Assembly: GCA_016869285.1 (NCBI GenBank)
Contig: VGEN01000001.1
Span: 7,201 to 71,200 of the forward strand
DNA from: Alphaproteobacteria bacterium
Lineage (GTDB): Bacteria; Pseudomonadota; Alphaproteobacteria; SHVZ01
Direction of reading: 5' to 3'
Length of the DNA: 64,000 bases
A program made the position numbers and the translations under genes. Under the pieces are notes generated by a model. That model saw nothing but the letters and a program-made list of their open reading frames with translations, ran no database searches and was not told the DNA's origin. Below, in pieces: positions 16,352 to 50,382 of this stretch. The stretch's first letter is position 1, and the number at the start of each line of letters is the position of its first letter.

Positions 16352-16358
16352 GCGACCG

Positions 16359-16634
16359 ATGCATCGCATAGACTGTCCCTGGTGCGGTGTTCGCGACGAA
16401 GCGGAGTTCAGCTATCGCGGCGACGCGACGGTAAAGCGACCGCCAGCGGATGGCGGCGCCGAGGGCTTCTACGCTTACGTCTATGACCGCACCAACCCGA
16501 AGGGCTGGCACGTCGAGTGGTGGCATCACGTCGCCGGCTGCCGACAGTTCCTGAAGGTGGTGCGCCATACGGTGACGCATGAGATCCGGTCGGTGGCCAA
16601 AGCCACGGACGAAGTGGCGGCGCCGCCGGCATGA
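16359..16634 (+). CDS. soxD: sarcosine oxidase subunit delta
   Basis: 91 aa with CPWCG...C zinc-ribbon-like N-terminus typical of SoxD; position between soxB and soxA. Confidence 0.85.
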   Translation: MHRIDCPWCGVRDEAEFSYRGDATVKRPPADGGAEGFYAYVYDRTNPKGWHVEWWHHVAGCRQFLKVVRHTVTHEIRSVAKATDEVAAPPA

Positions 16635-19582
16635 CTCAGACGCATCGCCTCGCCCAAGGCGGCCGCATCGACCGCAGCCGCACGCTCCGCTTCACCTTCG
16701 ACGGCCGCCGCTATGAAGGCCATCCCGGCGACACCCTCGCTTCGGCCCTGCTGGCCAGCGGCGAGCGGCTGGTCGGGCGCAGCTTCAAGCACCACCGTCC
16801 GCGCGGCATCGTGACCGCTGGGCCTGAAGAACCCTGCGCCCTGGTCGAGCTTCGCTCGGGCGCTCGGCGCGAGCCCAACACGCGCGCAACCGTCGCCGAG
16901 ATCTACGACGGCCTGGAGGCGACGAGCCAGAACCGCTGGCCCTCGCTCGCCTTCGATGTCAGCGCGATCAACCAGCTCGTCGGCCGTTTCCTGCCGGCCG
17001 GCTTCTACTACAAGACCTTCATGTGGCCGGCGTCGTTCTGGGAGAAGGTCTACGAGCCGATCATCCGCCGCGCCGCCGGCCTCGGCCGCGCCGCGATGGC
17101 GCCCGATCCTGACGAGTACGAGTCGATGCACGCGCATTGCGACGTGCTGGTGGTGGGTTCCGGCGCCGCCGGCCTTGCCGCTGCGCGTGCCGCCGGCGCA
17201 GCCGGCGCCCGCGTCATCGTCGCCGATCAGGATTTCGAGCTCGGCGGCGGGCTCCTGCTCGAGCCGGAGCAGGAGCCGTGGCGTCAGGGGATGCTGGCCG
17301 CCCTTTCCGGCATGCCGGAGGTGCGCCTTCTGCCACGCACAACGGTATTCGGATTCTACGAGCATGACGTGCTGGGCGCGGTCGAGCGTGTCGCCGATCA
17401 CCTGCCGGTGCCGCCCGAGCACGGCGTGCGCCAGCGCGTCTGGACCATCCGTGCCAGGCAGACGGTGCTCGCAACCGGATCGACGGAGCGGCCGATCGCC
17501 TTCCCCAACAACGACCGGCCCGGCGTCATGCTGGCCTCGGCGGCGATGACCTATGTCCGGCGCTTCGGCGCGCGCCCCGGCGAGCGCGCCGTCTTCTTCG
17601 CCAACAACGACATCGCCTACGACGCTGCCTTCGCGCTTCACCATGCCGGCGTCAGTGTCGCGGCGATCATCGATGTACGGAAAAAGGACTCGAAACGCGC
17701 TGCAGCCGCCGCCGATCGCGGCATCGCGGTCAAGCTCGGCTCGGTCATCTCCGATGTGAAGGGCGGCCGCAACGTTCACGGCGTCTCTTTCCGCACCGCC
17801 AATGGCAGCGTCGAGCGCGTGCTCGACGCCGATCTGCTCTGCGTCTCCGGCGGCTGGAACCCGGCCGTCCATCTGCAAAGCCACACCCGCGCGCGTCCGA
17901 TCTGGAACAACGACCTCGCCGCCTTCCTTCCCGGCAAGCCGGTCCAGGCCGAACGCTCCGCCGGCAGCGCGGCCGGCGTCTTCGGTATCGCGCACTGCGC
18001 TACCGACGGCGCCAAGGCGGGGCGCGAGGCCGCGGCGGCCCTCGGCTTCCGCGACGGCGCGGCCTTCGAGCTGCCGGCGCCAGATGCTGAAGTCGATCCC
18101 AGGGTGAAGCCGTTCTGGGAGGTGAAGGCCAAGGGCAAGGCCTTCGTCGATTTGCAGAACGACGTCACTGCCGACGACATCCGCCTCGCCCATCGCGAGG
18201 GCTACACGCATATCGAGCACGCCAAGCGCTATACCACGCACAGCATGGCGACCGACCAAGGCCGCTTCTCGGGCATCCTTGGCACCGCCGTGCTCGCCGA
18301 GGCGCGCGGCGAGACGATCGAGACGGTCGGCGTGCCGACCTTCCGCCCCTATGTCACGCCGGTCACTTGGGGGGCCATGGCCGGGCGCCATGCGGGCCAT
18401 CACCTGCAACCGGTAAGGCGCTCGCCGCTGCACCCCTGGCATGTCCGCAACCACGGCATCTTCCTCGAGACCGGGCTGTGGATGCGACCGCTCTACTACT
18501 CGGCGACGCGCGAGACCGGCTGGGACCCGATCCTCAAGGAAGCGCGCGCTGTGCGCCAGGCGGTTGGCATCTGCGACGTCTCGACCTTGGGCAAGATCGA
18601 CATCCAGGGCCGCGATGCCGGCATTCTCCTCGATCGGCTCTACACCAACACCTTCTCGACGCTCGCCGTCGGCAAGGCGCGCTACGGCCTGATGCTGCGC
18701 GAGGACGGCATCATGTTCGACGACGGCACCACCTCGCGGCTTTCCGAGCACCGCTACCTGATGACGACGACCACGGCGAAGGCGGCCGAGGTGCTGGCCC
18801 ATATGGAGTTCTATCACCAGACCGTCTGGCCCGAGCTCGATGTGCGCTACTGCACGGTCACCGACCAATGGGCGCAGATGTCGGTCGCCGGGCCGAAGAC
18901 GCGGCTCGCGCTGCAGGGCTGCGTCGAGGGACTTGATCTCTCGAACGAAGCTTTTCCATTCATGGGCGTCTGCGATGCGACCGTCGCCGGATGCCCGGTG
19001 CGCCTCTACCGCGTCAGCTTCTCGGGCGAGATGGCCTATGAGGTCGCGACGCCGGCCGGCTATGGCGAGCGCGTCTGGGAGGCGATCCTGGCGGCCGGCA
19101 GGCCGCACGGCATCCTGCCCTACGGGCTCGAGGCGCTCGGCCTGCTCCGCATCGAGAAGGGCCATGTCGCCGGGCCCGAGCTCAACGGCCAGACCACGGC
19201 GCGCGATCTCGGCTTCGAGAAGATGCTGAAGAAGAAGGGCGACTATGTCGGCCGCGTCAACGCCGAGCGGCCGGCGCTGGTGGCGCCCGACCGGCCGCGG
19301 CTGGTCGGCATCCGCGCCGTCGATCCTTCCTTCGAGAAGCGGCTGCGCGGCGGCGCGCACATCGTCGACAGGCCGGACTCGAAGGCGAGCCTCGGCTGGG
19401 CCACCAGCATCACGCGCTCGGTCGAGCTCGAGCGCTGGCTGGGCCTGGCGATGATCCGCAACGGCCCCGAGCGGATCGGCCAGCGCCTCTACGCCACATA
19501 TCCGCTCAAGAACGAGGTGGTCGAGATCGAGGTCTGCTCGCCGCACCATGTCGATCCGGAGAACCTCCGTGTCCGCGCCTGA
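16631..19582 (+). CDS. soxA: sarcosine oxidase subunit alpha
   Basis: 983 aa; N-terminal 2Fe-2S-like/NAD domain, C-terminal GcvT-like folate-binding domain; ATGA coupling to soxD. Confidence 0.9.
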   Translation: MTQTHRLAQGGRIDRSRTLRFTFDGRRYEGHPGDTLASALLASGERLVGRSFKHHRPRGIVTAGPEEPCALVELRSGARREPNTRATVAEIYDGLEATSQNRWPSLAFDVSAINQLVGRFLPAGFYYKTFMWPASFWEKVYEPIIRRAAGLGRAAMAPDPDEYESMHAHCDVLVVGSGAAGLAAARAAGAAGARVIVADQDFELGGGLLLEPEQEPWRQGMLAALSGMPEVRLLPRTTVFGFYEHDVLGAVERVADHLPVPPEHGVRQRVWTIRARQTVLATGSTERPIAFPNNDRPGVMLASAAMTYVRRFGARPGERAVFFANNDIAYDAAFALHHAGVSVAAIIDVRKKDSKRAAAAADRGIAVKLGSVISDVKGGRNVHGVSFRTANGSVERVLDADLLCVSGGWNPAVHLQSHTRARPIWNNDLAAFLPGKPVQAERSAGSAAGVFGIAHCATDGAKAGREAAAALGFRDGAAFELPAPDAEVDPRVKPFWEVKAKGKAFVDLQNDVTADDIRLAHREGYTHIEHAKRYTTHSMATDQGRFSGILGTAVLAEARGETIETVGVPTFRPYVTPVTWGAMAGRHAGHHLQPVRRSPLHPWHVRNHGIFLETGLWMRPLYYSATRETGWDPILKEARAVRQAVGICDVSTLGKIDIQGRDAGILLDRLYTNTFSTLAVGKARYGLMLREDGIMFDDGTTSRLSEHRYLMTTTTAKAAEVLAHMEFYHQTVWPELDVRYCTVTDQWAQMSVAGPKTRLALQGCVEGLDLSNEAFPFMGVCDATVAGCPVRLYRVSFSGEMAYEVATPAGYGERVWEAILAAGRPHGILPYGLEALGLLRIEKGHVAGPELNGQTTARDLGFEKMLKKKGDYVGRVNAERPALVAPDRPRLVGIRAVDPSFEKRLRGGAHIVDRPDSKASLGWATSITRSVELERWLGLAMIRNGPERIGQRLYATYPLKNEVVEIEVCSPHHVDPENLRVRA

Positions 19583-20159
19583 CCGCCTCTCGCCCTTCGG
19601 CCCCGAGGCACGGCCCGGCCGTCACGGTGCCGCCGGCGGTTCGCCGGTGTTGATGACCGAGCGCAGGGTCGACATCGTCCAGGTGATGGCGAGCCGCGAT
19701 GCCGAAGCGGCGGGGGGCGTCAGGGATGCGACCGGCCTCGCCCTTCCCGGCCCGCGCAAAGCCGAGATCGCCGGCGACGCGATGGCGGTCTGGATACAGC
19801 CTTCCGGCTGGCTGGTGATCCGCCCGCGCGGCGAGGAAGGCGCGCTGGCGAAGAAGCTCGGCGGCAACGAAGCGATGGCCGTGGTCGATCAAAGCCATGG
19901 CCGCTGCGTGCTGCGCCTGTCCGGCGCGCATGCCGGCGGGGTGCTCGCCAAGGGCAGCCGCGTCGACCTTCATCCCCGCGTCTTCCCGCCCGGCAGCGCC
20001 GCCACCACGAGCATCGACCACCTCACCGTCACGATCGTGAAGGTCGATGCAGTGCCCAGCTTCGATCTCATCCTGCCATCGAGTTTCGCCGAAGCCTTCC
20101 TCGACTGGCTCCGGACGTCGGCGACTGAGTTCGGCTACGAGATCAGACCGTCGACGTGA
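19548..20159 (+). CDS. soxG: sarcosine oxidase subunit gamma
   Basis: About 200 aa ORF overlapping soxA end; canonical position; exact start (19548 ATG or in-frame GTG 19569) uncertain. Confidence 0.75.
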   Translation: MSIRRTSVSAPDRLSPFGPEARPGRHGAAGGSPVLMTERRVDIVQVMASRDAEAAGGVRDATGLALPGPRKAEIAGDAMAVWIQPSGWLVIRPRGEEGALAKKLGGNEAMAVVDQSHGRCVLRLSGAHAGGVLAKGSRVDLHPRVFPPGSAATTSIDHLTVTIVKVDAVPSFDLILPSSFAEAFLDWLRTSATEFGYEIRPST

Positions 20160-20230: not shown

Positions 20231-21805
20231 TCAGAAGTCCGTCTTCACGCCGCCCTCTTCCTTGCGCCTGGAGACGAAGGCATCGATGGCCTCGGCCGCT
20301 GCCGAATCCATCGGCGGTGGCTGGTAGCGGGCCAGCGTCTCCTTCCAGATCCGGTTCGATCGCTCCATGGCCGTCGGCGACCCGGCCTCGCGCCAGCTCT
20401 CGAAGTTGCGCCAATCGGAGACCAGCGGGCTGTAGAAGGCCGTCTTGTAGCGGCTCTGCGTGTGCACGGCGCCGAAATAGTGGCCGCCCGGCCCGACCTC
20501 GCGGATCGCATCGAGCGCCAGCGTCTCGTCGCTCACCTCCAGCGGATCGAGGTACTGGGAAACCATCTGCAGGAGGTCGACATCGACGATGGTCTTCTCG
20601 AAGGAGGCGGTAAGACCGCCTTCCATCCACCCGGCCGAGTGCAGGATGAAGTTCCCGCCGCCCATGACCGCACCCCAGAGCGAGAACACGGATTCATAGG
20701 CCGCCTGTGCATCGACGGTATTGGCGGCGCAGGTGTTCGAGGTGCGATAGGGCAGTCCATAGCGGCGCGCGAGCTGGCCGCCGACCGTTGCCGCCTTCAT
20801 GTACTCCGGCGTACCGAAGGCCGGTGCCCCCGACTTCATGTCGACATTCGAGGTGAAGCCGCCATAGACCACCGGCGCCCCCGGCCGGACGATCTGGGTC
20901 AGCGTAATGCCGGCCAACGCCTCGGCGTTCTGCTGCGCCAGCGCGCCCGCGACCGTCACCGGCGCCATTGCACCGGCGAGCGTGAACGGCGTCATGATGA
21001 CGACCTGGTTTCTCGCCGACATCTCCATGATGCCCTGGAGCATCGGCGCGTCGAGGCGAAGCGGCGACGAGGAGTTGATGACGGTGATCAATGAGGGCTC
21101 GCGGTCGAGCTGCTCTTGCGCGATGCCGCGGGCAAGCCTGACGACCTCCAGCGCGTCGCGGTTGCGCTGCCGGCCCAGCGAATAGGCATGGAAGGCCTTG
21201 TCGGTCAGCTTGGCGAGATCGGAAAGGCAGTCGAGGTGCCGGATCGACGCATGCAGATCGACCGGCTCGACCGGGTAGCCGCCGGTCATGTGGATGACAT
21301 TGAAGCTCTGCGCCAGCTTCACGAGGTTGCGGAAGTCCTCATGATTGCCGGGCCTCCGGCCCTTGTCGGCATCCGAGCAGTTGGGGGCGCTTGCGACCTG
21401 GGCGAAAATCACCTTGTCGCCGCCGAAGTCGAGATTGTGCGCGGGATTGCGCGCATGCAGCGTGAAGGTCGAAGGCGCGGTCCTGATCCTCTCCTCGATC
21501 AGGCCGCGATCGAAGCGCACGCGCTGCTGGCCCGGTCTGGTCTTCGCACCGGCCTTGGCGAGCAGCGCGATCGCGTCTGTGTCGAGGAAGTCCATGCCGA
21601 TCTCTTCGAGGATCGTGAGCGAGGCGTTGTGGATCGCCTCGAGTTCGTCGGCGCTCAGGATCTCCACCGGCGGGAAGCGCCGCCGCGGCTGACGAAAGGG
21701 GAACGCATCCGCCGCCGCATCCGCCGCCGCCCGGCCGGCATGACGCGCCCGCCCGCCGCGCCGCTCGCGCCCCTCGCCGCCTTGCCGTTCCGACGGCTCG
21801 GTCAT
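20231..21805 (-). CDS. MttB superfamily (non-pyrrolysine) methyltransferase, trimethylamine/glycine-betaine:corrinoid methyltransferase-like, paralog 1
   Basis: 524 aa from internal ATG (MTEPSERQ...); TIM-barrel MttB hallmarks, no in-frame amber; strongly similar (same motif blocks, e.g. ...GGFTSNVDMKSGAPAFGTPEY...) to paralog at 30296. Confidence 0.85.
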   Translation of the reverse strand: MTEPSERQGGEGRERRGGRARHAGRAAADAAADAFPFRQPRRRFPPVEILSADELEAIHNASLTILEEIGMDFLDTDAIALLAKAGAKTRPGQQRVRFDRGLIEERIRTAPSTFTLHARNPAHNLDFGGDKVIFAQVASAPNCSDADKGRRPGNHEDFRNLVKLAQSFNVIHMTGGYPVEPVDLHASIRHLDCLSDLAKLTDKAFHAYSLGRQRNRDALEVVRLARGIAQEQLDREPSLITVINSSSPLRLDAPMLQGIMEMSARNQVVIMTPFTLAGAMAPVTVAGALAQQNAEALAGITLTQIVRPGAPVVYGGFTSNVDMKSGAPAFGTPEYMKAATVGGQLARRYGLPYRTSNTCAANTVDAQAAYESVFSLWGAVMGGGNFILHSAGWMEGGLTASFEKTIVDVDLLQMVSQYLDPLEVSDETLALDAIREVGPGGHYFGAVHTQSRYKTAFYSPLVSDWRNFESWREAGSPTAMERSNRIWKETLARYQPPPMDSAAAEAIDAFVSRRKEEGGVKTDF

Positions 21806-21884
21806 AGTGTGCCTCTCGTCATCTTCGGCCGCGGCGCAAGGTAGTGCAACGCCGCGCTTCAAGCCACCTCGCTCCGGACATTGC

Positions 21885-23030
21885 ATGAAGACCCTGCTCC
21901 CGGTCCCGGAAATCGCTGTCGGCGCCGACCGGGTCGACAAGATCGGCGCCGATCTCGCCGCCCTCAAGGAAGCGCCAAAGCGCGTCCTCCTGGTGATCGA
22001 CCGCATGCTCTCGCACGGCGGCGTCGGCAAGCGCGTCCGCGAGGCATTGGCGACGACCCGTCACGAGACGGCGCTGTGGGACGGGCTTGCCGGCAAACCG
22101 ACTGGCGCCCAGATCGATACCGCCGCCGCCCTGGCGCGGACGCATACGGCAGAGGCCGTCATCGGGGTCGGCGGGGGCTCCGCGCTCGATGTCGCCAAGC
22201 TCGTGGCGGCGATCGCCGGCGCTACGGACAGTGTCGAGCGCTACGCCTTCTGCGCCAACCCGCTGCCGACAATACCGCTGCCTGTGATCTGCGTGCCGAC
22301 CACCGCCGGCACCGGCTCCGAGACCACCCACACCGCGGTCTTCGCCAATGCCGCCGGCAAGAAGGCCTGGGCCTGGGGGCCGGAGCTGGCGGCGCGCAAA
22401 GCCGTCCTCGATGCGAGCCTGACAACCTCGCTGCCTGCGCCTCTGACTGCCGCGACCGGCATCGATGCGTTGATTCATGCCGTCGAATCCTGCACCAATG
22501 CCAACCGCTTCGAAGCCAATGACGTGATCGCGCATGCCGCGATCCGGCTGATCGCGCGCCATCTGCCCGCAGCCGTCCGCGAGCCGCAGAACCTTGAGGC
22601 GCGTGAAGGCATGCTGGTCGCTTCCTGCTATGCCGGCATCGCCATCAACAACACCGGAACCGCGATCGCGCACAACATCGCGCATGCGCTCGGCAGCATC
22701 GGCAAGGTTCATCATGGACGGGCTGCCGGGCTCGGCCTTCGTGCTTCCCTGCCCTGGAGCCTGTCCGCCAGCGAACGCGCCTTTGCCGATGTCGCCGAGG
22801 CGATGGGAGGACCGCGTGACGCCGGCGCCCTGCCCGGCCTCGTCGATCGGCTCATCCGAGCCGTCGGCTTGAAGGTGGCGCTGGCCGACGAGCTGCCAGG
22901 CGTCACGCCCGAGCGCCTCGCCGCCGAAATGGCTCTGCCCGAGAACGAGGCGATGCGGAAGTCGTCGGCACGACCCTCAACCGAGCGCGACCTGCACGAT
23001 CTTGCGCGCGCCGTGCTGACAGCGAGCTGA
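21885..23030 (+). CDS. iron-containing alcohol dehydrogenase family protein
   Basis: GGGSALD glycine-rich NAD motif and His-rich metal site (HxxxH-type, AHNIAHALG); start at internal ATG MKTLLPV. Confidence 0.8.
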   Translation: MKTLLPVPEIAVGADRVDKIGADLAALKEAPKRVLLVIDRMLSHGGVGKRVREALATTRHETALWDGLAGKPTGAQIDTAAALARTHTAEAVIGVGGGSALDVAKLVAAIAGATDSVERYAFCANPLPTIPLPVICVPTTAGTGSETTHTAVFANAAGKKAWAWGPELAARKAVLDASLTTSLPAPLTAATGIDALIHAVESCTNANRFEANDVIAHAAIRLIARHLPAAVREPQNLEAREGMLVASCYAGIAINNTGTAIAHNIAHALGSIGKVHHGRAAGLGLRASLPWSLSASERAFADVAEAMGGPRDAGALPGLVDRLIRAVGLKVALADELPGVTPERLAAEMALPENEAMRKSSARPSTERDLHDLARAVLTAS

Positions 23031-23034
23031 AACA

Positions 23035-24165
23035 ATGAAGATCACCGCCATCGAGATCACCCAGCATCAGCTGCCGCTGGACCCGCCGTTCCACCCAAGC
23101 TGGTCGTCGCGCCCGCGGCTCAAATTCGATGCGACCCTGGTGCGCGTCCACACCGATGAAGGGATCACCGGGATCGGCTCGGGCGACTACATGCTGGGCT
23201 TCGCCGGTCACGAGCATCTGTTCATCGGCGAGGACCCACTTCGCCTCGAGCGCCATTGGCGCGTGATCGACCATATCGGCTTCCACTACGGCCGCTGCTG
23301 GCCGCTCGACCTCGCGCTCTGGGACATCGCCGGCAAGGCGGCGGGCCAGCCCTGCTGGAAGCTGCTCGGAGGCTACGCCAATAGGCTTCGGTGCTATGCC
23401 TCCTCCGGAACGCTCCGCAACGCCAAGGCGCTCGCCGACCTCGCCGAACGCGTGATCGTACGCGGCTTCAAGGCGATGAAGATCCGCTTCCGCCGCGGCT
23501 CCTGGCGCGACGACATCCGCGCGCTGGAGGCCGTGCGCGAGCGCATCGGCACCCGCCTCGAACTCATGGTCGACTGCAACCAGGGTTGGCGGTTTCCGTG
23601 GGACACGATGGCCGCCTGGACCCTCAAGGATGCGATCGCCGTCGGGCGCGAACTGGAAAGGCTGCACGTCTACTGGATGGAGGAGCCGCTGCACCGTGCC
23701 GACCGCCGTGGCATGCGCACGCTCAAGGACACGCTGGATGTCCGCATCGCCGGCGGCGAGCTCAACCGCGAGATGAGCGAGCTGCGCGACGTGATCCAGG
23801 AAGGCTGCCTCGACGTCGTGCAGCCCGACGTGGTTTCGATCGGCGGCATCACGGGCCTGGCCAAGGTCGCAGCGATGGCGAATGCCAACAACATCGTCTT
23901 CACGCCGCATACCTGGGGCAACGGCATCGGACTCATGGCCAACGCGCATGTCGTCGCCGGCACCACCGATCCAAGCTACCTCGAATTCCCCTGGGATCCG
24001 CCGGAATGGACCAATGAACGGCGCGACTACCTGCTAACCGAGCCGATCGACCTCGACGCCGAGGGCAATCTGATCCTCAGCGACAGGCCGGGCCTTGGGA
24101 TCGACCTCGACGAGGCGGTGCTGAAACGCACCCTGGTCGATGGCATCGTCAAGTCGAATAACTAG
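23035..24165 (+). CDS. enolase-superfamily enzyme (mandelate racemase/muconate lactonizing family; proline-betaine/hydroxyproline-betaine epimerase HpbD-like candidate)
   Basis: 376 aa; capping domain + barrel with metal-ligand Asp/Glu positions (MVDCNQGW, WMEEP, DVVQPD) and KxK-type general base region. Confidence 0.75.
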   Translation: MKITAIEITQHQLPLDPPFHPSWSSRPRLKFDATLVRVHTDEGITGIGSGDYMLGFAGHEHLFIGEDPLRLERHWRVIDHIGFHYGRCWPLDLALWDIAGKAAGQPCWKLLGGYANRLRCYASSGTLRNAKALADLAERVIVRGFKAMKIRFRRGSWRDDIRALEAVRERIGTRLELMVDCNQGWRFPWDTMAAWTLKDAIAVGRELERLHVYWMEEPLHRADRRGMRTLKDTLDVRIAGGELNREMSELRDVIQEGCLDVVQPDVVSIGGITGLAKVAAMANANNIVFTPHTWGNGIGLMANAHVVAGTTDPSYLEFPWDPPEWTNERRDYLLTEPIDLDAEGNLILSDRPGLGIDLDEAVLKRTLVDGIVKSNN

Positions 24166-26189
24166 TCGCGCCGTCGCCGCCGGCGTCCCTCGCCCGCCGC
24201 GGCGGCCTCCTTCCGCTCGGGCATCTTCACTGCTGCGGTCAGGTTCGGGAACGGCTCGACGCGGTTCGGGAAACCGATCGCATTGACGAAGTGCTCCTGG
24301 AAGCGCGGCTCGACCGCGGTTTCGATCTTCTCGATGCGCCGAACCAGGCCTTCGATCTCGCGGCGGTGGCCGCGATTGAGCAGCGCCATGCGGGCACCTG
24401 TGCCGGCGGCGTTGCCGACCGCTGAGACCTTGTCGAGGGCGCAATCCGGCACGAGGCCGATGATCATCGCGTGCTTCGGATCGATGTGGCTGCCGAAGGC
24501 CCCGGCGAGCTTGATGCGATCGACCTTGTCGATGCCGAGCTTGTCCATGAGCAGCCGCGAGCCGGCATAGAGCGCCGCCTTGGCGAGCTGGATGGCGCGG
24601 ATGTCATTTTGGGTGACCTTGATCTCGACGGGTTCCGTCCTCAGGACATAGGAGTAGGTCCGCCTGTCCGGCACAATCCGCGGCGTCCGCGCCGCAAGCG
24701 TACCGTCGATCATGCCGTCATGCGTCACGATGCCGGCGAGGAACATCTCCGCCACCGCCTCGATGATGCCTGAGCCGCAGATGCCGGTGACGCCGACCCT
24801 GTCGATGCCAATATCGAACCCCTCCTCGTTCGACCACGGGCCGACGTCGATGACCTTGATGCGCGGCTCAAGTGTCTCTGGATCGATGCGCACGCGCTCA
24901 ATCGCACCGGGCGCCGCGCGCTGACCTGAGGAGATCTGCGCGCCCTCGAAGGCCGGACCGGTCGGCGAGCTCGCGGCGAGCAGGCGGTCGGCGCTGCCGA
25001 GCACGATCTCCGCATTGGTGCCGACATCGATGACGAGCGTGATTTCCTGCCCCTTGTGCGGCGCCTCGGCCAGCGTCACCGCTGCCGCATCGGCGCCGAC
25101 GTGCCCCGCGATGCACGGAAGGACGTAGGCACGGCCAGACTTCAGGATCGGTAGGCCCAGGCCCTGCGCGCGGAGATCGAGCGCCTGCGAGACCGCGAGC
25201 GGAAACGGCGCCTGGCCCAGCGGTGTCGGATCGATACCGAGATAGAGGTGATGCATGATCGGATTGCCGACCAGCACCGCCTCGACGATCTCTTCCTGCG
25301 CGACTGCGCCCTGGCCGGCGACGCGGCCGATCAACGTGTTGACGGCATCGCGCACGACATCGGTCAGTGCGCCGCGACCCTCCGGATTCATCATCACATA
25401 GGAGACCCGCGACATCAGGTCTTCGCCGAAGCGGATCTGCGGGTTGGCCGTACCAGCGGACGCCACGGTACGCCCCGACATCAGATCGACGAGATGGCAG
25501 GCGATCGTGGTCGAGCCGATGTCGACGGCTACGCCGAAGAGGCGCTCGCGGTAGCCGGGCCAGACGCCGACGACCCGCGGCCTTCCGCCATCCTGGTGCA
25601 CGGCCACCGTCGCCTTGTAGCCGCCCTTGATCAGCGCCGGCTGCACGTCCGGCAGGATGGCGACATCGACGAGCACGTCGCGGATGCCCCATTTCTCGGA
25701 CAGGTGGCCGATCACGCGATCGAGATCGCCTTGCGGCTTCGCCATGTCGGGCGGGTCGATCTCGATATAGTGGAGATGCGTCGCGAGATCGCGCACGATT
25801 GCGCGGGTTTCGGCGCGTTTGCGCACGACCTGGGTGTTGACGGCGACATCGGCCGGTACGTCGATCACGACATCGCCCTCGATCTTCGCCGAACAGCTCA
25901 GGCGCCGGCCCGCCGGCAACGAACGGATATCGGCATAGCGCTGCTCGGTCTCCGACCGCCCGCTCAAGCTGTCGGCGCGAGAGGTGATGCCGTGCTTGGC
26001 AAAGACGCCTTCGGCGACCTCGATCTGGCAGCGCCCGCAAAGGCCGCGGCCGCCGCAGACGGACTCAATGTAGACGCCGAGCGAGCGCGCCGCATCGAGA
26101 ACGGACATGCCGATGGGGAAGCGGCCGCGGCGCCCGCTCGGCATGAAGATGACGAGCGCGTCGTCGGTCTTGGCGGGGGTGTCTGGCAC
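24162..26189 (-). CDS. ASKHA-domain corrinoid reductive activator (RACE/RamA-like) with N-terminal 2Fe-2S ferredoxin domain
   Basis: 675 aa; N-terminal plant-type ferredoxin cysteines (CGGRGLCGRCQ...C), followed by large ASKHA ATPase-like domain as in corrinoid activation enzymes. Confidence 0.8.
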   Translation of the reverse strand: MPDTPAKTDDALVIFMPSGRRGRFPIGMSVLDAARSLGVYIESVCGGRGLCGRCQIEVAEGVFAKHGITSRADSLSGRSETEQRYADIRSLPAGRRLSCSAKIEGDVVIDVPADVAVNTQVVRKRAETRAIVRDLATHLHYIEIDPPDMAKPQGDLDRVIGHLSEKWGIRDVLVDVAILPDVQPALIKGGYKATVAVHQDGGRPRVVGVWPGYRERLFGVAVDIGSTTIACHLVDLMSGRTVASAGTANPQIRFGEDLMSRVSYVMMNPEGRGALTDVVRDAVNTLIGRVAGQGAVAQEEIVEAVLVGNPIMHHLYLGIDPTPLGQAPFPLAVSQALDLRAQGLGLPILKSGRAYVLPCIAGHVGADAAAVTLAEAPHKGQEITLVIDVGTNAEIVLGSADRLLAASSPTGPAFEGAQISSGQRAAPGAIERVRIDPETLEPRIKVIDVGPWSNEEGFDIGIDRVGVTGICGSGIIEAVAEMFLAGIVTHDGMIDGTLAARTPRIVPDRRTYSYVLRTEPVEIKVTQNDIRAIQLAKAALYAGSRLLMDKLGIDKVDRIKLAGAFGSHIDPKHAMIIGLVPDCALDKVSAVGNAAGTGARMALLNRGHRREIEGLVRRIEKIETAVEPRFQEHFVNAIGFPNRVEPFPNLTAAVKMPERKEAAAAGEGRRRRRRD

Positions 26190-26193
26190 GGAG

Positions 26194-26493
26194 CTATCCT
26201 GTTCGCCCGTTTCCGGCGACCAGCGCCTTCAAGCGCTCGGCATCGTAGGTGGCTTCGAGGGAGGCGACCGCCGCATCGGCCTCGGCCTTGAGGTCGTCGC
26301 CGCAAGCCTCGGGATCGCCACGCCGCCACTCCGCGAGATAGGCATCGCTGTCGCGGGCCCCAACCTTCATCGCGCAGCGGTCGATCGCCTGGATGAAGCG
26401 CTCCGGCAGCTCGCGCTTTTCGGCCGTTCTCCCCTGGCGCACGATCACCTGTGCTGGTATGTCACGCCAATACACGATGATCCGCTGCGCCAT
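26194..26493 (-). CDS. small conserved protein of the family often annotated 'virulence factor', co-transcribed with RACE
   Basis: 99 aa, balanced composition, N-terminus IIVYWRDIPAQVIV; 4-bp gap to RACE start. Confidence 0.45.
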   Translation of the reverse strand: MAQRIIVYWRDIPAQVIVRQGRTAEKRELPERFIQAIDRCAMKVGARDSDAYLAEWRRGDPEACGDDLKAEADAAVASLEATYDAERLKALVAGNGRTG

Positions 26494-26523: not shown

Positions 26524-27534
26524 ATGTCGAGTCGTCTCGAAGAGCTGCTGAAGGCACGGGGCCGCCTGCTCGCCGACGGCGCGACCGGAACCAACCTGTT
26601 CGAGATGGGCCTCTTGTCGGGGGACGCGCCCGAGCTCTGGAACGAGACGCAGCCGGAGAAGATCCGCGCGCTGCACCAGAGCTTCGTCGACGCCGGGGCC
26701 GACATCATCCTTACGAACACCTTCGGATGCAACAGGCGCCGCCTGATGCTTCACAAGGCGGAAGGCCGTACCCGCGAGCTGAACCGGCTGGGCGCCCAGA
26801 TCGCCCGCTCCGTCGCGGACAAGGCTGGACGGACGGTGATCGTCGCGGGCTCGGTCGGACCGACCGGCGATCTGCTGATCCCGCTCGGACCTTTGAGCGA
26901 GGAAGAGGCCGTCGACGTCTTCATCGAGCAGATCGAGGGGCTGAAGGCCGGCGGCGCCGACGTCGTCTGGATCGAGACCATGTCCGCGATCGAGGAGATG
27001 CGCGCCGCCGCGCAGGCCGCGATCAAGGTCGGCATGCCTTATACTGTGACCGCGACCTTCGACACGGCCGGGCGCACCATGATGGGTGCGACGCCGGAAG
27101 CGGTTGCTACCTTCCTCAGGGGCCTCGAACCGAAGCCGATCGCGATCGGAGCCAATTGCGGCGTCGGCGCACCCGACCTGATCTACTCGGTCATGCAGAT
27201 CACCGAGGCGGCACCGGACGCGGTGGTCATCGCCAAGGGAAATTGCGGCATCCCCAAATTCGTCGGCACCCAGGTCGAGTATACGGGCACTCCGGCGGTC
27301 ATGGCTGAGTATGCGCGGCTCGCGCTGGACACGGGCGCGCGTATCGTCGGCGGCTGCTGCGGAACCTCGCCCGGTCATCTCGCCGCCATGCGTCAGGCCC
27401 TCGATACGCACCGGCCAGGCGAGCGCCCCGACCTGGCAAAAGTGATCCAATGCATCGGCCCGCTAACCGCTCCGCCGGCCGACACCGCGGCCGAGCCCGT
27501 CAAACGCCGCGCCGGGCGACGCCGGAGCGGCTGA
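26524..27534 (+). CDS. homocysteine S-methyltransferase domain protein (MetH N-terminal-like / BHMT-like)
   Basis: 336 aa; zinc-binding Cys motifs GANCGVG and GGCCGTSP at canonical spacing of Hcy-binding (S-methyl_trans) domains; first gene of the corrinoid operon. Confidence 0.8.
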   Translation: MSSRLEELLKARGRLLADGATGTNLFEMGLLSGDAPELWNETQPEKIRALHQSFVDAGADIILTNTFGCNRRRLMLHKAEGRTRELNRLGAQIARSVADKAGRTVIVAGSVGPTGDLLIPLGPLSEEEAVDVFIEQIEGLKAGGADVVWIETMSAIEEMRAAAQAAIKVGMPYTVTATFDTAGRTMMGATPEAVATFLRGLEPKPIAIGANCGVGAPDLIYSVMQITEAAPDAVVIAKGNCGIPKFVGTQVEYTGTPAVMAEYARLALDTGARIVGGCCGTSPGHLAAMRQALDTHRPGERPDLAKVIQCIGPLTAPPADTAAEPVKRRAGRRRSG

Positions 27535-28944: not shown

Positions 28945-29646
28945 ATGGCCGACGGCGACGACATCGTCCTGGAAGAGCTCAATGACAGCGAGCTCGTCAA
29001 GCAGATGCATGACGACCTCTATGACGGTCTCAAGGACGAGATCGAGGAGGCCGTCCACATCTTGCTGAGGCGCAAGTGGGAGCCGTACCGGATTCTCACC
29101 GAGGCGTTGGTCGAAGGCATGCGCATCGTCGGCATCGACTTCCGCGACGGCATCCTGTTCGTGCCGGAAGTGCTGATGTCGGCCAATGCGATGAAGGCCG
29201 GCATGGCGATCCTGAAGCCGCTGCTGGCCGAGACCGGGGCGCCGCGCGTCGGCAAGATGGTGATCGGCACCGTCAAGGGTGACATCCACGACATCGGCAA
29301 GAATCTCGTCACCATGATGATGGAAGGCGCCGGCTTCGAGGTGATCGACCTAGGCATCAACAACGCGGTCGAGAAGTACCTGGACGCCATCGCCGAGCAT
29401 CAGCCGGACATCCTCGGTATGTCGGCGCTGCTGACCACGACCATGCCCTACATGAAGGTCGTCATCGACGCCCTCAAGGAGAAAGGCATCCGCGATGACA
29501 TCGTCGTGCTCGTCGGCGGAGCGCCGTTGAATGAGGACTTCGCCAAGGCGATAGGCGCCGACAGCTATTGCCGGGACGCCGCCGTCGCGGTCGAGACCGC
29601 CAAGCAGTACATGATGCGCAAGCACAACCAGCGCGCTGCCGGCTGA
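28945..29646 (+). CDS. cobalamin-binding corrinoid protein (MtbC/MtgC-like)
   Basis: 233 aa; B12-binding DxHxxG motif GDIHDIGKN followed by Rossmann-like B12 domain, N-terminal helical cap. Confidence 0.85.
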   Translation: MADGDDIVLEELNDSELVKQMHDDLYDGLKDEIEEAVHILLRRKWEPYRILTEALVEGMRIVGIDFRDGILFVPEVLMSANAMKAGMAILKPLLAETGAPRVGKMVIGTVKGDIHDIGKNLVTMMMEGAGFEVIDLGINNAVEKYLDAIAEHQPDILGMSALLTTTMPYMKVVIDALKEKGIRDDIVVLVGGAPLNEDFAKAIGADSYCRDAAVAVETAKQYMMRKHNQRAAG

Positions 29647-37355: not shown

Positions 37356-37449
37356 GGCGTGGTCCCAGCGGCTTCGCCCTGCGGACGTACGACACGTCCG
37401 CAGGGCCGCCGGCCCCTTTTCAGTCCTTTAACGCCTACCGCCCGGAGCG

Positions 37450-42283: not shown

Positions 42284-42285
42284 TG

Positions 42286-45509: not shown

Positions 45510-45553
45510 TCAGATCCCCTGCACATCGACTGGCTCACGGGCAATACGGCAAT

Positions 45554-50380: not shown

Positions 50381-50382
50381 GA

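What the first reader, a model, noticed from the sequence alone, without database searches (positions are those of the whole stretch)
20231..24165. Second, unlinked MttB paralog next to an Fe-ADH + enolase-superfamily (HpbD-like) pair, suggesting a distinct betaine substrate
Seen directly: a second MttB paralog (20231-21805, minus) is convergent with soxG and divergent from an operon of an iron-type alcohol dehydrogenase and a mandelate-racemase-family enzyme. Its blocks are conserved with the 30296 copy, but its N-terminal 70 residues are very different.

Established knowledge: enolase-superfamily HpbD enzymes epimerise/racemise proline betaine and 4-hydroxyproline betaine as the first step of their catabolism. 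The different MttB clades discriminate betaine substrates.

Inference: the two paralogs probably serve different quaternary amines (for example glycine betaine versus proline/hydroxyproline betaine, or carnitine). The ADH/epimerase pair may process the demethylated or hydroxylated product. This copy has no corrinoid protein of its own, so both paralogs may share the single corrinoid protein and RACE.
Basis: partly seen in the sequence, partly recalled or inferred. Interest (0 to 1): 0.6.

Follow-up and report, generated by a model that had tools for sequence, protein, structure and literature searches.

The report
Betaine demethylase paralog, conserved enolase partner

Summary
The genes are real and lie where stated: MttB-1 (20231-21805, minus), then a 79-bp divergent spacer, then Fe-ADH (21885-23030) and an enolase-superfamily gene (23035-24165) 4 nt apart.

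Two points of the reading fail. First, the copy is not "unlinked". It lies inside one methylamine island that carries a complete MtgC/MtgD/MtgE/RamA/DUF1638/MetF2 set. In relative L089 the layout is MttB1<-|->FeADH->Enol->M24->MttB2. Second, the enolase protein is not HpbD-like. It belongs to the mandelate-racemase subgroup: an Asp265/His292 dyad, Glu242 as third metal ligand, and K-x-R in place of K-x-K, invariant in 67 orthologs. It lacks both HpbD catalytic lysines.

The distinct-substrate idea survives. MttB-1 and MttB-2 are 52% identical and belong to separate clades with different fixed partners. MttB1-type sits with a DMGDH-like gene, a Dpp-type ABC transporter and Fe-ADH/enolase. MttB2-type sits with a DddP-like M24 protein. 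Both keep the carboxylate-binding Arg/His of MtgB but have Ala or Gly at the Tyr97 site. A third, Tyr-bearing clade (S. meliloti 4YYC type) is the closest to true MtgB.

The enolase orthologs sit beside N-demethylase genes in 56 of 80 species. The substrate is unknown. I found no published description of this association.

The parts
20231..21805 (-). MttB-1: non-pyrrolysine MttB-superfamily methyltransferase of the 'MttB1-type' clade (Ala at the MtgB Tyr97 site)
   Evidence: PF06253 E 2e-206. The ORF is uninterrupted. It scores below the Pyl-type TIGR02369 cut-off, 313 against 525 bits. The JGI gene call is identical.
21806..21884 (.). 79-bp divergent intergenic region between MttB-1 and Fe-ADH
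   Evidence: Read directly. No sigma-70-like promoter or terminator pattern was found. Beyond close relatives no conserved motif is visible.
21885..23030 (+). Iron-type (class III) alcohol dehydrogenase, 381 aa
   Evidence: PF00465 and PF25137. No NCBIfam equivalog reaches its cut-off; the best are ErcA, 4-hydroxybutyrate DH, SarD and GbsB at 165-184 bits. The best PDB matches are methanol and 1,3-propanediol dehydrogenases. An Fe-ADH lies upstream of the enolase ortholog on the same strand in 44 of 80 species loci.
23035..24165 (+). Enolase-superfamily protein of the mandelate-racemase subgroup, K-x-R variant, 376 aa
   Evidence: PF13378 and PF02746. Residues K149, R151, D180, N182, E216, E242, D265, H292 and E317 are invariant in 67 orthologs. 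The AF2 model has pLDDT 92.7 and places these residues at or just after the barrel strand ends. PDB neighbours are MR-subgroup enzymes.
24162..26189 (-). RACo/RamA-type corrinoid reductive activase; its 3' end overlaps the enolase gene by 4 nt
   Evidence: PF14574, PF17651, PF17650 and Fer2. The best NCBIfam match is AcsV/RamA-like. It is the only copy in the window.
26194..26493 (-). Small PF13769 protein upstream of RACo on the same strand
   Evidence: Gene call and Pfam annotation. The same pair is present in L090.
26524..27534 (+). MtgE-type homocysteine-binding methyltransferase (annotated 'BHMT')
   Evidence: PF02574. NF005718 scores 504 bits, above its cut-off of 338. The role follows PMC12478193.
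27656..28906 (+). DddP-like M24 protein, the fixed neighbour of MttB2-type genes
   Evidence: PF00557. The NCBIfam DddP model scores 415 bits, below its cut-off of 600. PDB DddP structures 4B28 and 4RZY match at E 1e-95 to 1e-100. Adjacency is seen in the window, L004, L011, L085, L089, L090 and L091.
28945..29646 (+). MtgC corrinoid protein, the only one in the window
   Evidence: PF02310 and PF02607. It gives a single tblastn hit in the window.
29646..30299 (+). DUF1638 protein (B12 reactivation partner in R. pomeroyi)
   Evidence: PF07796 in the gene call. The role follows PMC12478193.
30296..31852 (+). MttB-2: second MttB-superfamily paralog of the 'MttB2-type' clade (Gly at the Tyr97 site)
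   Evidence: PF06253 E 4e-193. It is 52% identical to MttB-1.
32015..34441 (-). DMGDH-1: FAD plus GcvT-domain tertiary-amine dehydrogenase. Its orthologs sit next to MttB1-type or enolase genes in other genomes
   Evidence: Pfam DAO, FAO_M and GCV_T. It scores about 600 bits to mammalian DMGDH. Of 55 DMGDH-like genes in the related loci, 45 are closer to this copy than to DMGDH-2.
34464..35486 (-). IPNS/EFE-like 2OG-Fe(II) oxygenase next to DMGDH-1
   Evidence: PF03171. The same pairing occurs in L085, L089 and L090; tblastn with the matching ORF cluster (C19) also finds it next to DMGDH-like genes in Labrys loci.
35688..41343 (+). Dpp/Opp-type ABC transporter (SBP_bac_5 binding protein, two permeases, fused ATPase)
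   Evidence: Related SBP_bac_5 transporters flank MttB1-type genes in L085-L089.
15098..20159 (+). soxBDAG heterotetrameric sarcosine-oxidase-type operon, convergent with MttB-1
43098..47361 (-). DMGDH-2, MtgD (methyl-THF:corrinoid methyltransferase) and a MetF2-like MTHFR. These complete the MtgBCDE set
   Evidence: Pfam results. NF005719 scores 375 bits, above its cut-off of 259.

Best explanation
The segment is one arm of a roughly 37-kb methylated-amine catabolic island, about 10.8 to 47.4 kb of the window.

Proposed mechanism:
1. MttB-1 is a non-pyrrolysine MttB-superfamily methyltransferase. It takes one methyl group from a quaternary amine that carries an acidic group and passes it to Co(I) on the single corrinoid protein MtgC.
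2. The methyl then goes to tetrahydrofolate through MtgD and MetF2, or to homocysteine through MtgE.
3. RamA/RACo and DUF1638 re-reduce oxidised cobalamin.
4. MttB-1 belongs to a conserved clade that differs both from MttB-2 and from the Tyr97-bearing MtgB/4YYC clade. Its substrate is therefore most likely not glycine betaine but another, probably bulkier, betaine-like compound, taken up by a Dpp/Opp-type ABC transporter.
5. The next two methyl groups are removed by the DMGDH-1-type flavoenzyme and by a sarcosine-oxidase-type enzyme.
6. The tightly adjacent Fe-ADH and enolase-superfamily enzymes work on the carbon skeleton of the same compound. The dehydrogenase oxidises an alcohol; in many species a PuuC/BADH-like aldehyde dehydrogenase is encoded between the two genes.
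7. The enolase-type enzyme has only the His292/Asp265 base and Arg in place of the second lysine. It abstracts the proton next to a carboxylate and drives a one-base beta-elimination (dehydration, or loss of an amine or onium group), not a two-base racemisation.

Shown: gene identities, catalytic-residue layout, clade structure, conserved gene neighbourhood. Inferred: direction of methyl flow, the order of steps, the reaction type of the enolase enzyme, and that the substrate is not glycine betaine. The substrate itself is unknown.
For: System parts in one window: MttB x2, MtgC, DUF1638, MtgE, RACo, MtgD and a MetF2-like gene. These match the R. pomeroyi MtgBCDE model (PMC12478193).

Clades:
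- MttB-1 versus MttB-2 is 52% identical, and each is 40% identical to 4YYC.
- MttB1-type orthologs in Hyphomicrobiales and Gammaproteobacteria are 63-84% identical to MttB-1.
- Microbaculum and Tepidamorphus carry a 4YYC-type copy (Tyr) next to MtgC and an MttB1-type copy (Ala) in the same locus.

Pocket:
- The Arg312 and His348 equivalents are invariant in all ~270 homologs checked.
- The Tyr97 site is Ala in 134 of 145 MttB1-type and Gly in 69 of 87 MttB2-type sequences.
- Y97A raises the glycine-betaine Km of MtgB about 360-fold (PMC13080624).

Neighbourhood of 80 species-level enolase orthologs (63-86% identical):
- Fe-ADH upstream on the same strand in 44.
- At least one N-demethylase gene (MttB, DMGDH-like or SoxB) in 56 of 80, and in 35 of the 44 loci with more than 8 kb on both sides.
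- An MttB1-type gene in 28.
- The divergent layout [DMGDH<-MttB1<-][->FeADH->ALDH->Enol] is kept in Labrys species.

Reciprocal test: 4 of 4 MttB1-type orthologs, chosen for long contigs without knowledge of their context, have the enolase and/or Fe-ADH within 10 kb. They also have a DMGDH-like gene adjacent to it and an SBP_bac_5 ABC transporter.

Enolase chemistry:
- K149, R151, D180, E216, E242, D265, H292 and E317 are invariant in 67 of 67 orthologs.
- They lie at or just after the barrel strand ends of a confident model.
- The nearest structures are MR-subgroup dehydratases and cycloisomerases.
- From memory of the mandelate racemase literature: the K166R mutant (PDB 1MDL, listed) loses racemisation but keeps the His297-side half-reaction.
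Against: - No substrate is identified and nothing here is experimental.
- DMGDH-1 and DMGDH-2 are equally similar to true mammalian DMGDH, about 600 bits each. MttB1 followed by DMGDH-1 and Sox could therefore simply be glycine betaine -> dimethylglycine -> sarcosine -> glycine.
- The second aromatic residue of MtgB (Phe356) is also missing from the Tyr-bearing 4YYC clade. Pocket rules from the Firmicute enzyme may not transfer.
- I could not place the glycine-betaine-induced R. pomeroyi proteins SPO2108 and SPO2134 in these clades.
- The aldehyde dehydrogenase is absent from the window. Fe-ADH is absent from relative L085. The Paroceanicella plasmid carries Fe-ADH plus enolase with no demethylase nearby.
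- In Alsobacter the pair lies near a 4YYC-type MttB, not an MttB1-type one. The pair may therefore serve methylamine catabolism in general rather than MttB-1 in particular.
Confidence: 0.5

Rival explanations
1. MttB-1 is simply the (or a second) glycine-betaine methyltransferase. Fe-ADH, with an aldehyde dehydrogenase encoded here or elsewhere, supplies glycine betaine from choline, as GbsB/GbsA do in Bacillus. DMGDH-1 and SoxBDAG finish the route to glycine. The enolase-family protein has an accessory or unrelated role.
For: - A DMGDH-like gene lies next to MttB1-type genes: directly downstream on the same strand in L086-L088, convergent in L085. That gene is as similar to true DMGDH as DMGDH-2 is.
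- sox genes are adjacent in the window and in L085, L088 and L089.
- The carboxylate-binding Arg and His are conserved.
- Fe-ADH orthologs score 165-209 bits against the GbsB choline dehydrogenase model, among their best hits.
- The aldehyde dehydrogenase between Fe-ADH and the enolase gene scores 487 bits against the BADH model.
- In R. pomeroyi two MttB paralogs are both induced on glycine betaine, choline and carnitine.
Against: - The Tyr97 site is Ala, and Y97A costs MtgB about 360-fold in Km.
- A separate Tyr-bearing clade closer to true MtgB (45% versus 36% identity) coexists with MttB1-type copies in the same loci and sits next to MtgC.
- The associated transporter is Dpp/Opp-type rather than the Opu-type permease seen beside 4YYC-type genes in Alsobacter (for the neighbourhood; the Opu assignment is my reading of the C14 sequence and was not tested against a profile library).
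- No Fe-ADH or ALDH model reaches its curated cut-off.
- This reading gives no role to the most conserved member of the gene set, the enolase protein.
Confidence: 0.27
2. One reading: the enolase-family protein is an HpbD-type 2-epimerase/racemase for proline betaine or 4-hydroxyproline betaine, and MttB-1 is the matching proline-betaine methyltransferase (MtpB-like).
For: - Enolase-superfamily enzymes do act on betaines (HpbD).
- In Microbaculum and Tepidamorphus the enolase gene is followed by an MSOX/N-methyltryptophan-oxidase-like flavoenzyme.
- In three related loci an MttB1-type gene lies next to an ORF that, from its sequence, looks like an Old-Yellow-Enzyme/N-methylproline-demethylase-type flavoprotein. 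That assignment is my reading of the sequence and was not tested against a profile library.
- A GbcA/Stc2-family Rieske oxygenase lies 30 kb away in the window.
Against: - Both HpbD catalytic lysines are absent (Arg151, Asp265). The third metal ligand is Glu rather than Asp. A His/Asp dyad is present instead. This holds in 67 of 67 orthologs.
- No HpbD structure is among the 60 best sequence matches or the 50 best fold matches in the PDB, all of which are MR-subgroup.
- With one general base, a two-base 1,1-proton transfer is not expected.
- No HpbB1C1, HpbA or HpbJ-type context lies next to the gene.
Confidence: 0.06
3. Fe-ADH plus enolase is an ordinary sugar-acid or hydroxy-acid catabolic pair, and its position next to MttB-1 is coincidental.
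For: - The best family matches are arabinonate, talarate/galactarate and galactonate dehydratases.
- On the Paroceanicella plasmid the pair has no demethylase neighbour and lies about 8 kb from a sugar ABC transporter.
Against: - 56 of 80 species loci (35 of 44 with long flanks) carry MttB, DMGDH or Sox genes next to the enolase ortholog, and the reciprocal test gave 4 of 4.
- The pair is co-oriented with an SBP_bac_5 transporter and an MSOX-like gene in L086.
- It is co-oriented with M24 and MttB2 in L089.
- No sugar kinase, aldolase or lactonase recurs in the neighbourhood clusters.
- All dehydratase models score far below their cut-offs.
Confidence: 0.1

Closest known systems
Aerobic MtgBCDE split cobalamin methyltransferase of Ruegeria pomeroyi DSS-3 (Mausz et al. 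2025, PMC12478193)
   Same: The same set of separate proteins is present: PF06253 methyltransferase(s), MtgC corrinoid protein, pterin-binding MtgD next to a MetF paralog, homocysteine-binding MtgE, RamA and DUF1638. Several MttB paralogs share one MtgC.
   Different: Here the genes are clustered rather than scattered. One paralog is divergently paired with Fe-ADH plus an MR-subgroup enolase protein, and the other with a DddP-like M24 protein. Neither association is mentioned in that paper. I could not determine the clade of the R. pomeroyi MtgB1 and MtgB2.
MtgB glycine betaine:corrinoid methyltransferase of Desulfitobacterium hafniense (PDB 2QNE/9YCE; PMC13080624)
   Same: Same fold family (343 bits). 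The Arg312 and His348 carboxylate clamp is conserved.
   Different: Only 36% identical. The cation-pi pair Tyr97/Phe356 is replaced by Ala/Gly in MttB-1 and Gly/Gly in MttB-2. A conserved Trp occupies the MtgB Ile352 position.
Sinorhizobium meliloti MttB homolog, PDB 4YYC
   Same: It is the best solved relative of both paralogs (401 and 391 bits) and has the same Arg/Gly-rich N-terminal leader.
   Different: It forms a third clade, 40% identical to each window paralog. It keeps Tyr at the Tyr97 site and is closer to true MtgB (45%). Its orthologs sit next to MtgC in L086 and L087.
HpbD 4-hydroxyproline betaine 2-epimerase / proline betaine racemase (PDB 2PMQ, 4J1O; PMC3950512)
   Same: Enolase superfamily, Mg-dependent abstraction of the proton alpha to a carboxylate, and encoded among betaine catabolic genes.
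   Different: HpbD has two lysine bases (Lys164, Lys266) and Asp/Glu/Asp metal ligands. It sits with Rieske demethylases. The window protein has Arg151, Asp265, His292 and Glu242 and sits with corrinoid and flavin demethylases.
Mandelate-racemase-subgroup enzymes: galactarolactone cycloisomerase 4HPN, Bordetella 3OZM, L-talarate/galactarate dehydratase 2PP0, mandelate racemase and its K166R mutant 1MDL
   Same: Same barrel residue layout (Asp, Glu, Glu ligands; Asp-His dyad; Glu on strand 8). TM-scores are 0.80-0.85.
   Different: Only 22-31% identical. The second lysine of K-x-K is an invariant arginine. The 20s and 50s loops and the positions after His292 and Glu317 are rich in conserved Phe/Trp. 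The genomic context is N-methyl amine catabolism rather than sugar-acid genes.
Bacillus subtilis GbsB/GbsA (Fe-type choline dehydrogenase plus betaine aldehyde dehydrogenase). The comparison rests on my own knowledge plus the NCBIfam models.
   Same: A class III Fe-ADH followed, in many related loci, by a BADH/PuuC-like aldehyde dehydrogenase. This is the logic of turning an amino alcohol into a betaine acid.
   Different: Scores are far below the GbsB and BADH cut-offs (165-209 against 550; 487 against 669). The window has no aldehyde dehydrogenase gene in the cluster. An enolase-family gene is always attached.

Membership tests
MttB superfamily, non-pyrrolysine branch | Full-length PF06253 domain | tested here: met
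   E 2e-206, profile positions 1-500 of 500.
MttB superfamily, non-pyrrolysine branch | No in-frame UAG (pyrrolysine) codon, and not a true TMA methyltransferase | tested here: met
   The 524-codon ORF is uninterrupted. The Pyl-type equivalog TIGR02369 scores 313 bits against a cut-off of 525.
MtgB (glycine betaine methyltransferase) | Arg312/His348 pair that binds the carboxylate | tested here: met
   Both are conserved in MttB-1, MttB-2 and about 270 homologs.
MtgB (glycine betaine methyltransferase) | Aromatic cation-pi pair Tyr97/Phe356 | tested here: not met
   MttB-1 has Ala and Gly; MttB-2 has Gly and Gly. In MtgB, Y97A raises Km about 360-fold and F356L about 800-fold.
MtgB (glycine betaine methyltransferase) | [quoted passage not shown] | not testable with these tools
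   This needs an enzyme assay.
Aerobic MtgBCDE system | Presence of MtgC, MtgD, MtgE, RamA, DUF1638 and a MetF paralog next to MtgD | tested here: met
   All lie in the window between 24.1 and 47.4 kb.
HpbD (4-hydroxyproline betaine 2-epimerase) | Two lysine acid/base catalysts (Lys164 on strand 2, Lys266 on strand 6) | tested here: not met
   The corresponding positions are Arg151 and Asp265, invariant in 67 orthologs. The mapping uses motif spacing, the alignment to 3OZM and the model's strand ends. I had no HpbD sequence for a direct alignment.
HpbD (4-hydroxyproline betaine 2-epimerase) | Asp194/Glu219/Asp242 metal ligands | tested here: not met
   The ligands here are Asp180/Glu216/Glu242. 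The third is Glu, as in the MR subgroup.
HpbD (4-hydroxyproline betaine 2-epimerase) | Betaine-binding Trp312 and Asp293 | tested here: inconclusive
   The strand-7 position is His292. Conserved Trp residues exist (W294, W325), but their equivalence to Trp312 could not be checked without an HpbD alignment.
HpbD (4-hydroxyproline betaine 2-epimerase) | Closest solved relatives are HpbD structures | tested here: not met
   No HpbD entry is among the 60 best sequence matches (E 8e-39 to 9e-20) or the 50 best Foldseek matches.
HpbD (4-hydroxyproline betaine 2-epimerase) | Neighbourhood with Rieske demethylase HpbB1C1, HpbA, HpbR and a betaine-binding transporter protein | tested here: not met
   The neighbours are MttB, RACo and Fe-ADH. 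A GbcA-like Rieske gene lies 30 kb away.
Enolase superfamily, mandelate racemase subgroup | Asp/Glu/Glu metal ligands on strands 3-5, and Glu on strand 8 | tested here: met
   D180, E216, E242 and E317 are invariant and lie at or just after the strand ends of the model.
Enolase superfamily, mandelate racemase subgroup | His-Asp dyad on strands 7 and 6 | tested here: met
   H292 and D265 are invariant and align with the PHT and QAD motifs of 3OZM.
Enolase superfamily, mandelate racemase subgroup | K-x-K motif on strand 2, in which the second Lys is a base | tested here: not met
   The motif is K149-I-R151 in all 67 orthologs. The protein fits the subgroup but is a variant lacking this base.
Class III iron alcohol dehydrogenase | Fe-ADH N-terminal and C-terminal domains | tested here: met
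   PF00465 E 1.5e-35 and PF25137 E 7.8e-30. No substrate-specific model reaches its cut-off.

The most novel reading that the evidence does not exclude
The K-x-R enolase-superfamily family defines a new enzyme activity on an N-methylated or onium-bearing carboxylic acid. It would be a one-base beta-elimination: dehydration of a hydroxylated betaine or of its demethylated product, or loss of an amine or onium group from a beta-substituted acid. A hydratase acting on the acrylate produced by the DddP-like neighbour is another option. Together with Fe-ADH, an MttB1-type B12 methyltransferase, a DMGDH-type enzyme and a Dpp-type transporter, it would form a previously undescribed, widespread aerobic pathway for a methylated nitrogen compound other than glycine betaine.
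Probability: 0.35. Interest if true: 0.7.

Novelty: new variant of a known kind. Interest (0 to 1): 0.45.

Why it matters
Non-pyrrolysine MttB homologs are among the most abundant unassigned methyltransferases in Alphaproteobacteria. The 2025 work on aerobic MtgBCDE left open what the extra paralogs (up to seven per genome) do.

This analysis gives three concrete handles:
- Three separable clades with a simple marker at the Tyr97 site: Tyr, Ala or Gly.
- Fixed partner genes for two of the clades.
- Cultured carriers in which to test them: Labrys, Alsobacter, Microbaculum and Tepidamorphus.

It also flags an uncharacterised, highly conserved enolase-superfamily family that is tied to N-demethylation genes in at least 56 species. 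That is a good target for function discovery. If its substrate is found, it would add a route by which B12 controls turnover of methylated nitrogen in soils and lakes.

Tried and rejected
1. HpbD assignment: rejected on catalytic residues and nearest relatives. I could not obtain an HpbD sequence for a direct alignment. The residue mapping rests on motif spacing, the 3OZM alignment and the AF2 strand ends.
Only MtgB (2QNE/9YCE), 4YYC and true MttB (7XCL) could be compared.
3. Homoserine-betaine idea, prompted by ThrC-like, Kbl and Tdh genes after MttB1-DMGDH in L088: not replicated in any other locus, so dropped to a mere possibility.
4. Using similarity to true DMGDH to decide which DMGDH paralog handles dimethylglycine: both score about 600 bits, so this is uninformative.
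5. Riboswitch or RNA clue: no Rfam family reaches its gathering score in the window.
6. Promoter and terminator scan of 19.5-26.5 kb found nothing. The intergenic alignment shows no motif beyond close relatives.
7. Annotated plasmid collection: only one ortholog (Paroceanicella, 61% identical), with a generic annotation.
8. Literature: no paper links a mandelate-racemase-family protein or an Fe-ADH with MttB genes.
9. Substrate-specific NCBIfam models for Fe-ADH, ALDH, the enolase protein and the SBP: none reaches its cut-off.

Full report
**What is there**

The window is 64-70% G+C throughout. ORF listing, Pfam and NCBIfam scans, and an independent gene call on an identical JGI metagenome contig agree on this map:
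- soxBDAG, 15098-20159 (+).
- MttB-1, 20231-21805 (-), 524 aa.
- A 79-bp spacer.
- Fe-ADH, 21885-23030 (+).
- Enolase-superfamily protein, 23035-24165 (+).
- RACo/RamA, 24162-26189 (-), preceded on its strand by a small PF13769 gene.
- MtgE-type homocysteine methyltransferase, 26524-27534 (+).
- DddP-like M24 protein, 27656-28906 (+).
- MtgC corrinoid protein, 28945-29646 (+).
- DUF1638, 29646-30299 (+).
- MttB-2, 30296-31852 (+).
- DMGDH-like gene, 32015-34441 (-).
- 2OG-Fe(II) oxygenase, 34464-35486 (-).
- Dpp-type ABC transporter, 35688-41343 (+).

Further on lie a cupin "DMSP lyase"-family gene, a PhnD-like binding protein, a second DMGDH-like gene, MtgD (methyl-THF:corrinoid methyltransferase; 375 bits, above its cut-off) and a MetF-like gene at 41.3-47.4 kb. 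The Fe-ADH stop codon and the enolase start codon are 4 nt apart. The soxG and MttB-1 stop codons are 71 nt apart.

**Check of the observation**

The gene-level observation is correct, and the matches are far beyond chance (E 2e-206 for MttB-1).

Two details are off. First, the paralogs align from residue 36/33 onward at 52% identity, so only about 35 residues differ strongly. Both leaders are Arg/Gly/Ala-rich, and MttB-1's aligns with that of the S. meliloti homolog 4YYC.

Second, "unlinked" is not tenable. The two copies are 8.5 kb apart inside one island that contains the only MtgC and the only RACo of the window. In relative L089 the order is MttB1<-|->FeADH->Enol->M24->MttB2 with gaps of 5-11 nt within the plus-strand run. 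In L085 it is MttB1<-|->Enol->M24->MttB2. The window looks like that layout with the RACo/MtgE and MtgC/DUF1638 genes lying in between (inference).

**The system it belongs to**

Mausz et al. 2025 (PMC12478193) showed the following in Ruegeria pomeroyi:
- Glycine betaine is demethylated aerobically by PF06253 proteins (MtgB1, MtgB2) acting on a single corrinoid protein, MtgC.
- MtgD passes the methyl group to tetrahydrofolate, and a MetF paralog oxidises it.
- MtgE uses the same MtgC for methionine synthesis.
- RamA and a DUF1638 protein reactivate cobalamin.
- Genomes hold up to seven PF06253 paralogs, which the authors suggest serve other methylated compounds.

Every one of these parts is in the window. 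It is not new.

**Are the two paralogs different kinds?**

The MtgB glycine-betaine site is defined by Tyr97 and Phe356 (cation-pi) and by Arg312 and His348 (carboxylate). Y97A raises Km about 360-fold (PMC13080624).

I mapped these residues through the HMMER alignments to 2QNE/9YCE. The numbering was checked on all four residues:

| Protein | Tyr97 | Arg312 | His348 | Phe356 |
|---|---|---|---|---|
| MttB-1 | Ala | Arg | His | Gly |
| MttB-2 | Gly | Arg | His | Gly |
| S. meliloti 4YYC | Tyr | Arg | His | Gly |

Across about 270 homologs the pattern holds:
- Arg and His are invariant.
- A Trp at the MtgB Ile352 position is invariant.
- The Tyr97 site is Ala in 134 of 145 MttB1-type sequences and Gly in 69 of 87 MttB2-type sequences.

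Twenty-six columns separate the two clades. Several are charge changes, for example Leu249/Arg243, Pro254/Glu248 and Tyr208/Arg202.

D. hafniense MtgB is 45% identical to 4YYC but only 36% identical to either window paralog. In Microbaculum and Tepidamorphus a 4YYC-type copy (76-77% identical to 4YYC, Tyr retained) sits near MtgC, while an MttB1-type copy (Ala) sits 4.5 kb away.

So there are at least three clades, and the window holds the two that do not resemble the glycine-betaine enzyme at the aromatic site. The conserved Arg/His pair says that both substrates carry an acidic group. The small residue at the Tyr97 site suggests a roomier pocket (inference).

**The enolase-family protein is not HpbD-like**

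HpbD uses Lys164 and Lys266 as the two bases, Asp194/Glu219/Asp242 as metal ligands, and Trp312/Asp293 for the betaine (PMC3950512).

The window protein and its orthologs carry invariant K149-I-R151, D180, N182, E216, E242, D265, H292 and E317. In a confident AF2 model (pLDDT 92.7) these lie at or just after the ends of barrel strands 2-8. They align with the KLK, DANQ, EEP, GE, QAD and PHT motifs of the Bordetella MR-subgroup structure 3OZM. That is the mandelate-racemase layout, with the second lysine replaced by arginine.

Other evidence agrees:
- The 60 best sequence matches and the 50 best Foldseek matches in the PDB are MR-subgroup proteins. They include galactarolactone and anhydrogalactonate cycloisomerases, talarate/galactarate dehydratase, and mandelate racemase with its K166R mutant. 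No HpbD entry appears.
- NCBIfam dehydratase models score 100-160 bits, far below their cut-offs.

With only the His/Asp dyad as a general base, a two-base racemisation is unlikely. From memory of the mandelate racemase literature, the K166R mutant loses racemisation but keeps the His297-side half-reaction. A one-base beta-elimination, as in rhamnonate-type dehydratases and the cycloisomerases, is the natural expectation (inference).

By position, the residues next to His292 and Glu317 and those in the 20s and 50s loops are conserved aromatics: F19, W23, F56, W294 and W/Y/F320.

**Is the pairing with MttB-1 meaningful?**

A scan of one genome per species returned at least 599 loci. The best 80 carry orthologs at 63-86% identity. 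They come from Rhodospirillales-like MAGs, Labrys, Alsobacter, Beijerinckiaceae, Lichenihabitans, Acetobacteraceae, Steroidobacteraceae and others.

tblastn with the window's proteins, plus de novo clustering of neighbouring ORFs, gave these counts:
- Fe-ADH lies upstream on the same strand in 44 of 80 loci.
- A PuuC/BADH-like aldehyde dehydrogenase lies between Fe-ADH and the enolase gene in Labrys and others (14 loci).
- A GcvA-like LysR regulator is present in 28 loci.
- A DMGDH-like gene is present in 37 loci.
- An MttB1-type gene (at least 60% identical to MttB-1, and always closer to it than to MttB-2) is present in 28 loci.
- At least one N-demethylase gene is present in 56 of 80 loci, and in 35 of the 44 loci with more than 8 kb on both sides.

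The divergent arrangement [DMGDH<-MttB1<-][->FeADH->ALDH->Enol] is kept in Labrys. The DMGDH-like neighbour is the ortholog of the window's 32015-34441 copy in 45 of 55 cases.

The reciprocal test also holds. Four MttB1-type orthologs (72-84% identical) were chosen for long contigs without knowledge of their context. All have the enolase and/or Fe-ADH within 10 kb, a DMGDH-like gene adjacent to it and an SBP_bac_5 ABC transporter. In Microbaculum the run on one strand is SBP, permeases, ATPase, Fe-ADH, enolase, then an MSOX-like oxidase.

There are exceptions:
- The Paroceanicella plasmid carries the pair without demethylases.
- In L085 the Fe-ADH is missing.
- In Alsobacter the pair lies near a 4YYC-type MttB.

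By contrast, MttB2-type genes are always preceded by the DddP-like M24 gene. This holds in the window, L004, L011, L085, L089, L090 and L091.

**Most likely working**

Shown:
- A complete aerobic corrinoid methyl-transfer system is present.
- It has two non-MtgB-like MttB paralogs from distinct clades.
- There is a conserved, tightly adjacent Fe-ADH plus MR-type K-x-R enolase pair.
- That pair belongs, in most species, to gene sets for stepwise N-demethylation and to a Dpp-type transporter.

Inferred:
1. MttB-1 removes the first methyl from a carboxylate-bearing quaternary amine other than glycine betaine.
2. DMGDH-1-type and Sox/MSOX-type enzymes remove the rest.
3. Fe-ADH, with an aldehyde dehydrogenase where present, oxidises an alcohol function.
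4. The enolase-type enzyme performs a one-base beta-elimination on the resulting or demethylated acid.

Candidate chemistries that fit include dehydration of a 3-hydroxy acid such as demethylated carnitine, elimination from an isoserine-like or beta-substituted propionate skeleton, and hydration of acrylate made by the DddP-like neighbour. None is supported over the others. A homoserine-betaine hint from one locus did not replicate.

**Main rival**

MttB1-type followed by DMGDH and then Sox may simply be the glycine-betaine route, with Fe-ADH and ALDH feeding in choline. I give this about 0.27, for these reasons:
- Both DMGDH paralogs look equally like true DMGDH.
- Phe356 is missing even from the Tyr-bearing clade.
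- I could not place the Ruegeria proteins in the clades.

**Novelty and interest**

Multiple MttB paralogs sharing one MtgC is published. A distinct substrate for extra paralogs is a published suggestion.

I found no description of three things:
- The three-clade split with its Tyr/Ala/Gly marker.
- The fixed partnerships: MttB1-type with DMGDH-1, Dpp-type ABC transporter, Fe-ADH and enolase; MttB2-type with DddP-like M24.
- The existence of a highly conserved K-x-R MR-subgroup family tied to N-demethylation genes.

I rate this a new variant of a known kind, of moderate interest. It is a tractable lead for assigning a new substrate and a new enolase-superfamily activity. It is not a surprise in kind.

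Noticed in passing
window 27656-28906 and 30296-31852; also L011, L085, L089, L090, L091: A DddP-like M24 protein (E about 1e-100 to solved DddP DMSP lyases, but below the NCBIfam DddP cut-off) lies immediately upstream of every MttB2-type gene examined. This suggests that MttB-2 and the DddP-like protein act on the same compound, possibly a sulfonium or a beta-substituted propionate.
   Followed up: partly
window 41289-43101 (minus); L091 5841-8682; L021 and L081: The window has three adjacent genes: a GFA-family protein, a cupin of the DMSP_lyase family (PF16867) and a PhnD-like binding protein (PF12974). The same three genes lie next to an M24 gene and an MttB2-like gene in L091. PhnD-like genes also abut MttB2-like genes in L021 and L081.
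   Followed up: partly
window 34464-35486 (minus): An IPNS/ethylene-forming-enzyme-like 2OG-Fe(II) oxygenase is paired with the DMGDH-1-type gene here and in L085, L089 and L090; tblastn with the matching ORF cluster also places it next to DMGDH-like genes in Labrys loci. Its role is unknown; hydroxylation or oxidative N-demethylation are possibilities.
   Followed up: partly
window 53407-54678 (+) and 52385-53209 (-): A GbcA-family Rieske oxygenase (435 bits against the glycine betaine monooxygenase model, below the cut-off of 670) lies next to a PhyH-family dioxygenase. It may be an oxygen-dependent quaternary-amine demethylase alongside the B12-dependent system.
   Followed up: no
window 26194-26493 (minus): A 99-aa PF13769 ('Virulence_fact') gene lies directly upstream of RACo/RamA on the same strand. 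The same pairing occurs in L090. It may be an uncharacterised partner of the activase.
   Followed up: no
L068, L073, L081 (Steroidobacteraceae): A second, distant enolase-family paralog (28-30% identical; Asp in place of Arg151 and Asn in place of Asp265) sits beside another DMGDH-like paralog (about 26% identical). Enolase-type and FAD/GcvT-type enzymes therefore pair up more than once.
   Followed up: no
L088 14140-18391: In a gammaproteobacterial MAG, MttB1-type and DMGDH genes are followed by a cupin, a threonine-synthase-like gene, glycine C-acetyltransferase (Kbl) and a Tdh-like Zn-ADH. This hints at a homoserine- or threonine-derived skeleton, but it was not seen in any other locus.
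   Followed up: yes
window 1336-3246 and 47473-52374: Several peptidase-type genes flank the island: an S15 X-Pro dipeptidyl peptidase, an S9 prolyl oligopeptidase family protein, a DUF2817 protein and a beta-lactamase/D-aminopeptidase-like protein. There are also two Dpp-type ABC transporters. They may be linked to uptake of peptide-like substrates.
   Followed up: no
L059, L061, L064: Here an MttB1-type gene lies next to an ORF that, from its sequence, looks like an Old-Yellow-Enzyme/N-methylproline-demethylase-type flavoprotein rather than a DMGDH-like gene. This is the only context that would fit a proline-betaine-like substrate. The assignment was not tested against a profile library.
   Followed up: no
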